This document shows positions 9,103 through 12,100 of a DNA stretch of 64,000 bases, one piece after another. The position numbers were made by a program. The stretch is from assembly GCA_000165345.1 (NCBI GenBank), contig CM000435.1, positions 576,001 through 640,000 on the forward strand, in the 5' to 3' direction. Position 1 is the stretch's first letter. Each line of letters opens with the position of its first letter.

Positions 9103-12100
9103 TGAAAGTCAAATTTTTCATTCTAATGATCTTTCAAAACTTAACATCGTGGGGCGACCGCCCAAGTTATCTTCTAGCTTTCAATGCATTAAGTTAAAAA
9201 ATAAATTGAAATTTTAAGAGTGAGGGGATTAGTCCGGTACATGTATACAGTAAATAAATCAATAGATTTTATTCTATAGCTTATTTTTCTGATTTAAAAC
9301 TATTTCACAGATATTAATAAAAAACAAGAGGAAATAGGGTTTTTTTTTCACAATTTTTTCTGTAAGACCCAAGTCACTGGCTTGTATAAATTGAGGGAGA
9401 ATAAATAATTATCTACTTTATTTCAATTCAGAACCTCATTAGGCACTAAGGTATTTTCATATTGCCTTAAAACTCGTTTAAATCAATGCAGCAAAATAAA
9501 CAAACTGTAGGTGGAATCGGGCATTTTCATTCGTCACTCAAAGATGTCGAAGCGCAGAGCCAGATTTCATGCGCAGCATATAAACAACAATGGATTGCAA
9601 AGGTAGCGAGGGTTCCGCCTAGAAAAGTTCACACAACAAATATCTCTAGGATAAAAAATAGGCTATTTGCCTTTAATCAAAGGAGTTGTGCGTTATCCAT
9701 TGGAACAATGGTTGGAAATTTTAAATACATTTGTTCTTGGGCTAAACTTCTTGGGTTAACTATTTCGTCATTTCTTTTTATATGGGTATTATATTGTTTT
9801 TCAATTATAAAATATTTAAAAGGAGACCAGCATATCGAATACTTTTATACAAATGTTCTATGCTTAGTAATATCACTAATATCTTTTACCATGCTATCTA
9901 CTTCACTAATTATTCCAAATTCGACAGCAATTAACTTAAATTCAATGGAAAGCTCATTGTTGGCAGGTTCAGGAGTAGCAACTCGAAATTTAATTTCATG
10001 CAAAACTTTGTCAACGCTTTATTTAGTCATTTCACTTTTATCAATTTTCACGGCATTGCTACCCCAAATGGAATCGTATCATTTTACAATTACAATGCTT
10101 TCAATGATACTTGCCACCCATCTTGCGCCTTCAGTTTTGTTCTATATTGCTTATTTGCGTGGCGAAGATGGCTGCATTGATGACAGAAGTCATCATACGC
10201 TAATATAGCTATCTTCTTAAGTCAAGTATTTCGAATTAGAAACTTTTTATAATTATCGCATTCATGTTTTCGATAGACTTTTATATTTCAGAATTTTGAT
10301 TTATATTAGATTAGTTTTTTTGAATGTTTTATTATTGCCCAAGGTCGTTTATATTATTGCTATGCATTTGTTTCGCGGTTTACTTTGTATTGTGGAGATC
10401 AAAACTTAAATATACGAATTCTGCCAGATTTATCCAGATTCATGGTAAAACGTAAGTAAAATTGTTGACTTACTTTCAGGCTTAATAATAACTTTGTAGA
10501 TAAAAAAAGACGTAAGAATCGTTCTGATGACGATGACTGTAAGTTGTTAGAAAACTTTGATATTTTTTAACCATGATTTTTGTTAGCTGAGGACTATATG
10601 GACGATTCTTTCCGTGGAAACTCAAGCATAAGCATTAGCAATAACAAAAAGGAGCGAAAGGAAATTTCATTAGTATTAGCAGAGGATGATCAAGACAATG
10701 AAAGGTGAGTAAAATTTTTTTAGTTTTGTACTTTTTAAAATCAAATTAATTAAATAGAAAGGTTAAATGGTCGAATATTGTAGTTGGCCCTTCCAAAACA
10801 CCCCCAAAAAAATTTTGTGTAATATGCGGTTTTATTGGCAAATATAAATGCTACAAGTGCTTTAAATGCAGACCCAACTCTATCGTAAGATATGTTTGCT
10901 CTCACAAGTGTGATATACTACACAAAGAAATCGATTGTTGCAAACCCAAAAATCTTTTTATTTGGTGAACAAATTATTAATTTCACACACATTTCTTGCG
11001 ATTTGAGCTTAGTTTCGACACATTCAGTTGCAACTTGGTTCGTTTATTTCCATCAGAATTAACTTGAGAGTAGTCAGCTTTATTTTGGTATTCAGTCCTA
11101 TCGATCTTACTGCTACTTGCTTTACTTGATATCATTATCTTTCTCACTTCTTTATTTGATAAAATTTCAAGATATGTTTTTTTAAACTCGTGGTAATTTA
11201 TTGATAAATCCCAATTTAATATTTTCAAAATATGATATTCTAACATTAACATCTCCCATTGTGGCACACCCCCGATATGTGCCCAAAATTTTATTCCATA
11301 TTGTACATCGTACATCAGTTTGTATGTTAATAGTGCAGTGGCCAAAACGAGTCTGTGCGCAGTTAGGGATGTAACGCTCAATCTACCTTTGGATTTCTCA
11401 ACAGCTCTTCTTATTAAAATAACCATTACACAAAAATCGACAGGTGTTAGGGACACAAATTTCACGATTCTACTAATGAAGTAATCCCCTATAGATATTT
11501 TTGGAGTTGCGAGTGAATGAAATGGAGTAATAATTTTCTTATTTTCTTCAGTTTTATTGTTGATTTTATCAATTTCCATTATTACGCATTTTTTTATATC
11601 TTTTTCTACTGTTTCATATTCTGACCAGGAGTTATTCATCCAACTTGAAATTTGTGAATTTGAAAGAGGGTAACTTCTATAATTAAATTGCATACTATTA
11701 TTGTTTTCATGAAGTTGATTTCTATCTTTCCCATAATTTGCAGATTTTCTGGATATTGCACTTCTCAGTTCTTGTTTAATATTACTTTCATTGAATCTTT
11801 TAATTTCTACCACAGAGTGACCAACACTATTCTTTTCTTTATCAAGATTTCCTGAGTCGAATAATGATGATTTTGATGTTAGACTTTCAGATAATTCGTT
11901 TTGATTAACTAGAAGTGATAATTCATCATTGGAATTATTCCTAGTTGATGCCTCAGATGGTTTATTCCAATATTTCCACAGTATTGTTCCACTATTTTTA
12001 CTATAACTTAAACGACTCTTAAGAATAGGTATTTTGTCGTTTTTATGTTCAAATTCACCTGAGATATTTTCACTAAAATTTTTTTCATTACCTTCAAATT

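What the first reader, a model, noticed from the sequence alone, without database searches (positions are those of the whole stretch)
10442..10968. Unannotated four-exon Zf-HIT (ZNHIT1/Vps71-like) gene with two 48-nt and one 53-nt introns
The region has no ORF of 60 aa or more, so the track is empty here. Three GT[AG]AGT donors and YAG acceptors spaced 48-53 nt apart assemble a 125-aa protein. Its last exon is an unmistakable HIT zinc finger, KFCVICGFIGKYKCYKCFKCRPNSIVRYVCSHKCDILHKEIDCC, and its N-terminus is basic then acidic, as in SWR1/SRCAP-complex subunit ZNHIT1/Vps71. This shows that this compact genome hides multi-intron micro-exon genes, including a 10-nt first exon.
Basis: partly seen in the sequence, partly recalled or inferred. 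Interest (0 to 1): 0.5.

Follow-up and report, generated by a model that had tools for sequence, protein, structure and literature searches.

The report
Four-exon ZNHIT1-like gene, already annotated

Summary
Exons 10442-10451, 10500-10538, 10587-10704 and 10758-10968 (+) splice into 378 nt, giving 125 aa. The introns are 48, 48 and 53 nt and all are GT-AG. In seven Cryptosporidium species the exon lengths are fixed and the intron lengths drift out of frame. All 21 introns keep GT-AG, third codon positions vary most, and dN/dS is about 0.06. The ATG at 10442 is the true start.

The window is C. parvum. GenBank cpbgf_7002485 (151 aa, 'partial') contains exactly this 125-aa protein, and C. hominis ChUKH1_04915 and C. 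canis OIY81_882 carry the same 125-aa model. So the gene is not unannotated, although public models disagree (89, 105, 125, 151 and 183 aa).

The HIT finger is real but atypical. All eight zinc ligands are present, but 12 residues separate ligands 4 and 5 instead of 4, so Pfam zf-HIT scores below its cut-off. A profile of apicomplexan orthologues matches human ZNHIT1 at E 1.7e-14 across the region before the finger as well. Other HIT proteins score E 0.12 or worse.

It is most likely the SWR1/SRCAP-type ZNHIT1/Vps71 subunit. Exons 1-2 encode its basic N-terminal tract. Interest is low.

The parts
10371..10378 (+). TTTCGCGG, an E2F-like element 64-71 nt upstream of the ATG. It is a putative promoter element; this role is inferred.
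   Evidence: It is invariant in all 7 Cryptosporidium species, within an upstream region where 77% of columns vary. It is the only copy in the window. E2F-like motifs with a T-rich flank and a CG core are the commonest upstream motif in C. parvum (PMC3734150). Binding was not tested.
10442..10451 (+). Coding part of exon 1: ATGGTAAAAC, encoding M V K plus the first base of H4. The 5' UTR part of the exon lies upstream and its start is unknown.
   Evidence: The ATG and the GTAAGT donor that follows it are conserved in 7 species. In-frame stops lie 1, 2, 6 and 12 codons upstream in C. canis, the Logan species, C. felis and C. ubiquitum. C. parvum has no in-frame ATG upstream before its own in-frame stop.
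10452..10499 (+). Intron 1, 48 nt, GTAAGT...TAG, phase 1.
   Evidence: Its length is 47-48 nt across the six species measured, its sequence is 65% variable, and GT-AG is kept in all species.
10500..10538 (+). Exon 2, a 39-nt internal micro-exon. It encodes the rest of the basic tract and the acidic run (HKKRRKNRSDDDD).
   Evidence: It is 39 nt in 6 species and 42 nt (in frame) in C. ubiquitum. The changes are mostly synonymous. The profile match to orthologues from transcriptome assemblies starts at residues 5-7.
10539..10586 (+). Intron 2, 48 nt, GTAAGT...TAG, phase 1.
   Evidence: Its length is 46-50 nt in the six species measured and 75% of its columns vary.
10587..10704 (+). Exon 3, 118 nt. 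It encodes a Ser-rich linker and the conserved motif EISLVLAEDDQDNE.
   Evidence: It is 118 nt in all 7 species. The motif aligns with ZNHIT1 'NFQALLEEQN'.
10705..10757 (+). Intron 3, 53 nt, GTGAGT...TAG, phase 2, inside codon R56.
   Evidence: Its length is 44-56 nt in the six species measured. A phase-2 intron sits in the same linker, within 2 residues, in Eimeria flavescens and Babesia divergens.
10758..10968 (+). Exon 4, 211 nt including the TGA stop. It encodes the W...GPS..P.K.FC pre-finger motif, the HIT finger and the CCKPKNLFIW tail.
   Evidence: It is 211 nt in all 7 species and the most conserved segment.
10816..10938 (+). HIT zinc finger, residues C76 to C116. The ligands are C76, C79, C87, C90, C103, C107, H111 and C116.
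   Evidence: All eight are invariant in a 29-sequence alignment of apicomplexan and canonical ZNHIT1 proteins. The AF2 model has pLDDT 70-88 here. The top Foldseek hits are ZNHIT1 chains.
10861..10896 (+). Loop between zinc ligands 4 and 5 (residues 91-102, FKCRPNSIVRYV). It is 12 residues long, against 4 in canonical ZNHIT1.
   Evidence: The expansion is shared by apicomplexan orthologues and reaches about 40 residues in Toxoplasma and Eimeria. It explains the sub-threshold Pfam score.

Best explanation
This is the Cryptosporidium parvum gene recorded publicly as cpbgf_7002485. It is a four-exon, three-intron gene encoding a 125-aa protein, the apicomplexan version of ZNHIT1 / Vps71 (Swc6) / SEF.

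Shown here: the exon-intron structure, the start codon, purifying selection on the spliced frame, the eight zinc ligands, and specific homology to ZNHIT1 that extends about 55 residues upstream of the finger.

Inferred from work on human and yeast complexes: the protein is a small subunit of a SWR1/SRCAP-type remodeler that exchanges H2A for H2A.Z. In this reading its C-terminal HIT finger docks on a RuvBL AAA+ subunit and the protein pairs with Arp6. The basic N-terminal tract (MVKHKKRRKNR), encoded by exons 1 and 2, contacts the acidic patch of the H2A-H2B dimer that is to be exchanged.

The apicomplexan proteins differ from canonical ZNHIT1 in three ways. They have an expanded loop between zinc ligands 4 and 5. 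They have a conserved C-terminal C-G-K-P-x-N-x3-W tail. They lack the N-terminal 'RL..LE.DN(F/Y)' helix motif.
For: Gene model. The spliced ORF is intact. The same three introns are used in public models: P0008 (cpbgf_7002485) equals 26 upstream codons plus exactly these 125 aa, and there are 125-aa models in C. hominis and C. canis. The seven-species comparison gives fixed exon lengths, frame-breaking intron length changes, 21/21 GT-AG introns, codon-position variability of 18/14/59% and dN/dS of about 0.06. For the start codon, in-frame stops lie 1-12 codons upstream in four species, and M21, used by the 105-aa models, is Ile or Leu in three species.

Family. A full HMMER scan of 1.84 billion representatives found 31 hits. 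The strong ones are apicomplexan orthologues: gregarines, Cardiosporidium, Babesia, Eimeria and Toxoplasma TGME49_277680. The weaker ones inspected are canonical ZNHIT1-type proteins ending ...ETRCLKF/W. The apicomplexan profile matches human ZNHIT1 (8x15_L) at E 1.7e-14 over profile positions 17-118, whereas Vps71 scores 0.12, DDX59 0.25 and Bcd1 0.65. hhalign against canonical ZNHIT1 gives probability 99.5% and E 3e-23. The three best Foldseek hits are ZNHIT1 chains, the best at rmsd 2.0 A over 56 columns.

Mechanism by analogy. In human SRCAP-C the ZNHIT1 finger binds a RUVBL2 OB-fold and ZNHIT1 forms a heterodimer with ARP6. Its basic N-terminal residues contact the H2A-H2B acidic patch, and reversing their charge abolishes H2A.Z deposition (PMC10853557).
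Against: No RNA reads from C. parvum were examined here. Transcript support is indirect: it rests on the public annotation, and on the statement in PMC8744675, made for a different C. parvum annotation (IOWA-ATCC), that its introns are RNA-seq supported.

Pfam zf-HIT is below its cut-off for this protein alone (14.4 against 24.7 bits). Yeast Vps71 itself matches only weakly (E 0.12). The canonical N-terminal helix motif is absent.

I did not verify that Cryptosporidium encodes Swr1, Arp6, RuvBL1/2 or H2A.Z. I also did not exclude a second, canonical ZNHIT1 paralogue in the genome. The AF2 model is confident only for residues ~70-120, and the Foldseek E-values are weak (3.8e-3).
Confidence: 0.75

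Rival explanations
1. The protein is a HIT-finger adaptor for RuvBL1/2 that works outside SWR1. It could be a snoRNP or other RNP assembly factor like ZNHIT3/Hit1 or ZNHIT6/Bcd1, an INO80B-like subunit, or an apicomplexan-specific paralogue that diverged from ZNHIT1.
For: HIT fingers in several families share the fold. ZNHIT3, Bcd1 and DDX59 appear among weak hits. The clade lacks the canonical ZNHIT1 N-terminal helix motif and carries a clade-specific loop and C-terminal tail. Yeast Vps71 matches only at E 0.12.
Against: The family profile prefers ZNHIT1 by about 13 orders of magnitude over every other HIT protein in the PDB. The match also covers the acidic and basic linker, the L..LL.E(D/E) motif and the (W/Y)...GP(S/P)..P.R.FC motif outside the finger. 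Digyalum and Alphamonas proteins have a normal short finger but the apicomplexan-type N-terminal half, which bridges the two groups.
Confidence: 0.15
2. The true product is a shorter protein. In this reading only exons 3-4 are coding (105 aa from M21, as in the C. tyzzeri, C. ubiquitum and C. hominis 30976 models) or the product is 89 aa (the C. felis model). Exons 1-2 would then be 5' UTR or not part of the gene.
For: Such models exist in GenBank.
Against: M21 is Ile in C. canis and the Logan species and Leu in C. felis. Exons 1-2 keep their length, reading frame, ATG and splice sites in 7 species, and against C. canis, C. ubiquitum and the Logan species most of their changes are synonymous. 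Orthologues from transcriptome assemblies align from residues 5-7 onward and carry the same basic-then-acidic N-terminus.
Confidence: 0.03
3. The protein is longer at the N-terminus, as in the 151-aa 'partial' C. parvum BGF model or the 183-aa C. meleagridis model.
For: In C. parvum the frame stays open for 45 codons upstream of the ATG.
Against: C. parvum has no in-frame ATG in that stretch. In-frame stops lie 1-12 codons upstream in four other species. The upstream DNA is as variable as intron and has indels that are not multiples of three.
Confidence: 0.04
4. The pattern is a chance arrangement of splice-like motifs in non-coding DNA, or the locus is a decaying pseudogene.
For: GTRAGT hexamers are not rare: there are 43 in the window against about 35 expected.
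Against: dN/dS is about 0.06, the frame is intact in 7 species, synteny is conserved, and homologues occur across Apicomplexa.
Confidence: 0.01

Closest known systems
cpbgf_7002485 (C. parvum IOWA-BGF, WRK33421.1), ChUKH1_04915 (C. hominis) and OIY81_882 (C. canis)
   Same: They are the same gene with the same three introns. The 125 aa are identical to residues 27-151 of the BGF model, 97% identical to C. hominis and 80% to C. canis.
   Different: The BGF model is flagged partial and carries 26 spurious upstream codons. All are named only 'hypothetical protein' or 'HIT-type domain-containing protein', and none is labelled ZNHIT1/Vps71.
Human ZNHIT1 (SRCAP complex subunit; PDB 8X15 chain L, 9CA7 chain D)
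   Same: Both are small proteins (154 against 125 aa) with a basic N-terminal tract, an acidic/basic linker, a GP(P/S)..P.R.FC motif and a HIT finger at the extreme C-terminus. The family profile matches at E 1.7e-14, and ZNHIT1 gives the top fold hits.
   Different: The Cryptosporidium protein has 12 instead of 4 residues between zinc ligands 4 and 5. It ends in CCKPKNLFIW rather than ETRCLKWTV. It lacks the 'RRINRQLEALENDNF' helix region.
Yeast Vps71/Swc6 (SWR1 complex; PDB 6GEJ chain S) and plant SEF/SWC6
   Same: All have a C-terminal HIT finger. Vps71/Swc6 is the Arp6-partnered subunit of the H2A.Z exchanger (PMC10853557 lists Swc6 as the ZNHIT1 equivalent).
   Different: Vps71 is 280 aa and matches the apicomplexan profile only at E 0.12, over the finger alone. 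SEF was not examined here.
Toxoplasma gondii TGME49_277680, Babesia bovis 'HIT zinc finger family protein' and Eimeria/Cyclospora homologues
   Same: They belong to the same apicomplexan clade. They share the basic N-terminus, the D(L/I).L(I/V).A(E/Q)(D/E) motif, W...AGPS, the expanded ligand 4-5 loop and the C-terminal ..P.(N/H)L..W tail.
   Different: The loop is much longer in coccidia (about 40 residues, low complexity). I found no paper naming TGME49_277680.
Other HIT-finger proteins (ZNHIT3/Hit1, ZNHIT6/Bcd1, ZNHIT2, DDX59, INO80B)
   Same: They share the interleaved two-zinc HIT fold.
   Different: They show no similarity outside the finger. E-values are 0.25 or worse, or there is no hit, with the apicomplexan profile.

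Membership tests
Spliceosomal-intron-containing protein-coding gene (four exons) | The introns have GT...AG borders and their removal gives one uninterrupted reading frame. | tested here: met
   One search shows the spliced frame. 21 of 21 introns in 7 species are GT-AG and every species gives an intact ORF of 125 aa (126 in C. ubiquitum).
Spliceosomal-intron-containing protein-coding gene (four exons) | The conservation pattern is exon-specific: exon lengths are fixed, third codon positions vary most, and dN/dS is far below 1. | tested here: met
   Exons are 10/39(42)/118/211 nt. Intron lengths vary by amounts that are not multiples of 3. Variable columns by codon position are 18/14/59%. dN/dS is 0.06-0.07.
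Spliceosomal-intron-containing protein-coding gene (four exons) | Spliced transcripts exist in this organism. | not testable with these tools
   No C. parvum RNA reads were available. Support is indirect. GenBank models use the same junctions. PMC8744675 states that the introns of a different C. parvum annotation (IOWA-ATCC) are RNA-seq supported. A Babesia orthologue shows a spliced, cDNA-like contig.
HIT zinc finger (Pfam PF04438) | Eight zinc ligands are present in the order C-x2-C ... C-x2-C ... C-x3-C-x3-H-x4-C. | tested here: met
   C76, C79, C87, C90, C103, C107, H111 and C116 are invariant in the 29-sequence alignment.
HIT zinc finger (Pfam PF04438) | The protein scores at or above Pfam's gathering cut-off of 24.7 bits. 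| tested here: not met
   It scores 14.4 bits, E 0.032, and the insertion between ligands 4 and 5 splits the match. Of the 29 aligned family members, 23 match zf-HIT at E <= 0.01, the best at 2.7e-13.
HIT zinc finger (Pfam PF04438) | The protein adopts the HIT fold. | tested here: inconclusive
   The AF2 model has pLDDT 70-88 for residues ~70-120. The top 3 Foldseek hits in the PDB are ZNHIT1 chains, but at E 3.8e-3 to 3e-2. MYND and ZNHIT3 fingers follow.
ZNHIT1 / Vps71 (Swc6) / SEF subunit of SWR1-SRCAP | Homology to ZNHIT1 extends beyond the finger: an acidic/basic linker, an L..LL.E(D/E) motif, and (W/Y)x4-6 G-P-(S/P)-x2-P-x-(R/K)-x-(F/L)-C. | tested here: met
   The apicomplexan profile matches 8x15_L at E 1.7e-14, profile positions 17-118 against ZNHIT1 58-151. 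hhalign against canonical ZNHIT1 gives probability 99.5%.
ZNHIT1 / Vps71 (Swc6) / SEF subunit of SWR1-SRCAP | The protein is closer to ZNHIT1 than to any other HIT-finger family. | tested here: met
   The next HIT proteins in the PDB are Vps71 at 0.12, DDX59 at 0.25 and Bcd1 at 0.65; Hit1, ZNHIT2 and ZNHIT3 are not hit. The non-apicomplexan hits inspected from the 1.84-billion-protein scan are ZNHIT1-type.
ZNHIT1 / Vps71 (Swc6) / SEF subunit of SWR1-SRCAP | The protein has a basic N-terminal tract, which in ZNHIT1 binds the H2A-H2B acidic patch. | tested here: met
   Residues 3-11 (KHKKRRKNR) are basic and are conserved as a basic cluster in the apicomplexan orthologues. The function is known only for human ZNHIT1 (PMC10853557) and binding was not tested here.
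ZNHIT1 / Vps71 (Swc6) / SEF subunit of SWR1-SRCAP | The canonical N-terminal helix motif (ETR..V...RL..LE.DN[FY]) is present. | tested here: not met
   The motif is present in most of the canonical sequences of A4 and absent from all 18 apicomplexan sequences.
ZNHIT1 / Vps71 (Swc6) / SEF subunit of SWR1-SRCAP | It is the single orthologue, with no separate canonical ZNHIT1 in the same genome. | not tested
   The Cryptosporidium genome could not be scanned as a whole with these tools. Intermediate forms in Digyalum and Alphamonas argue for direct descent.
ZNHIT1 / Vps71 (Swc6) / SEF subunit of SWR1-SRCAP | It associates physically with Arp6, RuvBL and the Swr1 ATPase, and it is required for H2A.Z deposition. 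| not testable with these tools
   This needs IP-MS and H2A.Z ChIP or CUT&Tag after depletion.

The most novel reading that the evidence does not exclude
Apicomplexa carry a remodelled ZNHIT1. Its loop between zinc ligands 4 and 5 is expanded to 12 residues in Cryptosporidium and about 40 in coccidia. It has a conserved C-terminal CGKPxNxxxW tail and has lost the canonical N-terminal helix. This variant could dock differently on RuvBL or Arp6, or work partly outside a SWR1-type complex, which would give a parasite-specific handle on H2A.Z deposition. In addition, at least one of its introns (phase 2, in the linker before the W...GPS motif) may be ancestral to Apicomplexa and retained even in intron-poor Cryptosporidium.
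Probability: 0.25. Interest if true: 0.35.

Novelty: already known. Interest (0 to 1): 0.15.

Why it matters
The main value is for annotation. The same small gene is modelled five different ways across Cryptosporidium assemblies (89, 105, 125, 151-partial and 183 aa). It is named 'hypothetical protein' or, in Babesia microti and Cyclospora, wrongly 'Protein SEY1 homolog'. The comparison here fixes the 125-aa, four-exon model and its start codon. It also gives the gene a defensible name, ZNHIT1/Vps71-like, a candidate SWR1-complex subunit. The truncated models delete the basic N-terminal tract, which in human ZNHIT1 is needed for H2A.Z deposition. The finding does not change what is known about Cryptosporidium genome architecture, because multi-exon genes are already documented.

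Tried and rejected
- A direct Pfam scan of the 125-aa protein gave only a sub-threshold zf-HIT hit. phmmer and a 3-sequence profile against the PDB gave only weak ZNHIT1 hits, E 1e-3 to 9e-3. A broader apicomplexan profile was needed.
- The second word-indexed search, with the 18-sequence alignment, returned only 11 proteins; only the 8000 candidates sharing most words were scored.
- Literature searches for cgd7_2485, for TGME49_277680, and for Cryptosporidium with ZNHIT1 found nothing relevant. A search for Cryptosporidium with H2A.Z and SWR1 gave only passing mentions.
- Rfam found no RNA family anywhere in the window, so the short introns host no known ncRNA.
- An alternative acceptor for intron 1 at 10479 (TTTCAG) would give a 28-nt intron. 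I rejected it because it breaks the reading frame and the site is not conserved in C. canis, C. ubiquitum or C. felis.
- I considered a further intron inside the finger at GTAAGA (10888). I rejected it because the insertion is in frame, is conserved as protein in all species and is shared by orthologues from transcriptome assemblies.
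Full report
**What is in the sequence.** The window is about 30% G+C. Proteins from this locus are identical or nearly identical to Cryptosporidium proteins. At 10442-10968 (+) there is no ORF of 60 aa or more. Joining 10442-10451, 10500-10538, 10587-10704 and 10758-10968 gives a 378-nt frame that encodes 125 aa:

MVKHKKRRKNRSDDDDSEDYMDDSFRGNSSISISNNKKERKEISLVLAEDDQDNERKVKWSNIVVGPSKTPPKKFCVICGFIGKYKCYKCFKCRPNSIVRYVCSHKCDILHKEIDCCKPKNLFIW*

The introns are 48 nt (GTAAGT...TAG), 48 nt (GTAAGT...TAG) and 53 nt (GTGAGT...TAG).

**Is it more than chance?** GTRAGT occurs 43 times on both strands of the window, against 35 +/- 6 expected. 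Single donor-like sites therefore mean little, although three co-oriented sites within 260 nt is already unlikely.

The decisive test is comparative. I fetched the syntenic locus from C. hominis, C. meleagridis, C. canis, C. ubiquitum, C. felis and an unnamed Cryptosporidium in a Logan assembly. The gene order there is 14-3-3, a 239/240-aa protein, this gene, then a PHO80-type cyclin and Skp1 on the opposite strand. The alignments show the following:
- Exon lengths are 10 / 39 / 118 / 211 nt in every species, with one in-frame +3 in C. ubiquitum exon 2.
- Intron lengths are 47-48, 46-50 and 44-56 nt in the six species measured.
- All 21 introns keep GT...AG.
- Variable columns make up 20-39% of exons, 65-75% of introns and 77% of the upstream region.
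- Variable columns by codon position are 18%, 14% and 59%.
- Nei-Gojobori dN/dS against the four divergent species is 0.06-0.07.

**Start codon.** In-frame stops lie 1, 2, 6 and 12 codons upstream of the conserved ATG in C. canis, the Logan species, C. felis and C. ubiquitum. C. parvum has no in-frame ATG upstream before its own in-frame stop. Exon 2 has no in-frame ATG, read directly. M21, which the 105-aa public models use as the start, is Ile or Leu in three species. So 10442 is the start. The '10-nt first exon' is only the coding part of exon 1, which must also carry the 5' UTR. Exon 2 (39 nt) is a true internal micro-exon.

**It is already annotated.** These public models exist for the gene:

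| Model | Species | Length | Relation to the 125-aa protein |
|---|---|---|---|
| WRK33421.1, cpbgf_7002485 | C. parvum | 151 aa, 'partial' | 26 read-through codons (window 10364-10441) plus exactly this protein |
| ChUKH1_04915 | C. hominis | 125 aa | 97% identical |
| OIY81_882 | C. canis | 125 aa | 80% identical |
| three models | C. tyzzeri, C. ubiquitum, C. hominis 30976 | 105 aa | truncated |
| one model | C. felis | 89 aa | truncated |
| cmbei_7002485 | C. meleagridis | 183 aa | over-extended |

The published re-annotations report introns in about 10.8% of C. parvum genes, with 2-10 exons per intron-containing gene (PMC4637869). For a different C. parvum annotation (IOWA-ATCC), they describe the annotated introns as fully RNA-seq supported (PMC8744675). 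I could not inspect RNA reads for this gene myself.

**What the protein is.** On its own it scores below Pfam's zf-HIT cut-off (14.4 against 24.7 bits) and hits only human ZNHIT1 in the PDB, weakly (E 1.2e-3). The reason is visible in the alignments. All eight zinc ligands are present (C76, C79, C87, C90, C103, C107, H111, C116), but 12 residues rather than 4 separate ligands 4 and 5.

A filter-only HMMER scan of 1.84 billion representative proteins found 31 relatives. The strong hits are apicomplexan: the gregarines Lankesteria, Porospora, Selenidium and Trichotokara, plus Cardiosporidium, Babesia microti, B. bovis and B. divergens, Eimeria, and Toxoplasma TGME49_277680. They share four features:
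- a basic-then-acidic N-terminus;
- a D(L/I)xL(I/V)xAEDxxD motif;
- W...AGPS..P.R.FC;
- the expanded loop and a CGKPxNxxxW tail.

Several of these orthologues are complete ORFs from transcriptome assemblies. This independently supports the N-terminal architecture encoded by exons 1-2. The weaker hits inspected are canonical ZNHIT1 proteins ending in ...HKETRCLKF/W, and their profile matches human ZNHIT1 at E 2.9e-34.

The profile of 18 apicomplexan sequences matches human ZNHIT1 at E 1.7e-14, over profile positions 17-118 against ZNHIT1 residues 58-151. Other HIT proteins score far worse: yeast Vps71 0.12, DDX59 0.25, Bcd1 0.65. hhalign between the two groups gives 99.5% probability and E 3e-23. 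Digyalum and Alphamonas proteins have the short canonical finger with the apicomplexan-type N-terminal half, which bridges the groups.

An AlphaFold2 model is confident only for residues ~70-120 (pLDDT 70-88). Its three best PDB matches are ZNHIT1 chains from SRCAP-nucleosome structures, the best at rmsd 2.0 A over 56 columns, though the E-values are weak. The canonical N-terminal 'RL..LE.DN(F/Y)' motif is absent from the whole apicomplexan clade.

**How it most likely works (inferred).** In human SRCAP-C, ZNHIT1 forms a heterodimer with ARP6 and its zinc finger binds a RUVBL2 OB-fold. Its basic N-terminal residues contact the H2A-H2B acidic patch, and reversing their charge abolishes H2A.Z deposition without disrupting the complex (PMC10853557). 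By homology, the Cryptosporidium protein would be the equivalent subunit of a SWR1-type H2A.Z exchanger. Exon 4 would supply the docking finger, and exons 1-2 the KHKKRRKNR tract that touches the histone dimer. I did not verify that the partner subunits exist in Cryptosporidium, and no experiment addresses this clade: no paper mentions TGME49_277680.

**Exon structure in orthologues.** The Eimeria flavescens model has one intron, phase 2, in an Arg codon six residues before the conserved Trp. For Babesia divergens, comparing genomic DNA with a Logan contig that lacks two GT-AG-bounded segments shows a 37-nt intron splitting the start codon (AT|G). It also shows a 63-nt phase-2 intron six residues before the Trp. 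That contig is evidently cDNA-derived. Cryptosporidium intron 3 is phase 2 in R56, four residues before W60, in the same variable linker. This is consistent with one ancestral intron, but it is not proven.

**Verdict.** The claims of novelty ('unannotated', 'hides multi-intron genes') are not. This is an ordinary gene that is already deposited and inconsistently modelled. Its useful by-products are a settled 125-aa model and a ZNHIT1/Vps71-like name.

Noticed in passing
window 10371-10378 (+): TTTCGCGG lies 64-71 nt upstream of the ATG. It is invariant in all seven Cryptosporidium species inside otherwise unconserved DNA, and it occurs once in the window. It resembles the E2F-like upstream motifs described for C. 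parvum (PMC3734150). TGCAT lies just 5' of it in C. parvum, C. canis and the Logan species.
   Followed up: partly
window 10966-10985: The genes converge. The stop codon of the HIT gene ends at 10968 and the stop codon of the minus-strand PHO80-type cyclin ORF (10983-12143) is at 10983-10985. Only 14 nt separate them, so the two 3' UTRs must overlap in antisense.
   Followed up: no
window 10228-10239 (+): A block ATTTCGAATTAG lies about 20 nt after the stop of the upstream 240-aa ORF (9486-10208). It is conserved in five of the seven species, altered in C. meleagridis and absent from C. felis. It may be a 3'-end element, but its function is unknown.
   Followed up: no
public models of the same gene (P0002, P0005-P0008, P0046): Five incompatible gene models (89, 105, 125, 151-partial and 183 aa) exist for this one small gene across Cryptosporidium assemblies. 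The truncated models delete the conserved basic N-terminal tract.
   Followed up: yes
L010 1440-1990 (Babesia divergens genome) against L008 2440-2900 (Logan SRR26661632 contig): The cDNA-like contig shows that the Babesia orthologue has a 37-nt intron that splits its start codon (AT|G) and a 63-nt phase-2 intron. The GenBank model KAK1934072.1 uses different junctions and therefore has a spurious N-terminus.
   Followed up: partly
L010 1-1278 and proteins P0020, P0049: In Babesia divergens the upstream neighbour is a SEY1/RHD3 GTPase. The HIT proteins of Babesia microti and Cyclospora are named 'Protein SEY1 homolog' in GenBank. This looks like a name carried over from the neighbouring gene or from a fused gene model.
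   Followed up: no
window 12401-13000 (-): The Skp1 gene downstream also has introns. GTAAGT and GTGAGT donors lie on the minus strand at 12620 and 12679, and the orthologous gene spans about 586 nt for a 161-aa product in C. hominis.
   Followed up: no
(PDB profile searches): The region just before the HIT finger in canonical ZNHIT1 profiles also matches INO80C/Ies6 (a YL1_C-type subunit) at E 1e-5 to 1e-6. This fits the known parallel between the Arp6-Swc6 and Arp5-Ies6 modules. The apicomplexan profile keeps only a faint trace of the match (E 0.4).
   Followed up: no
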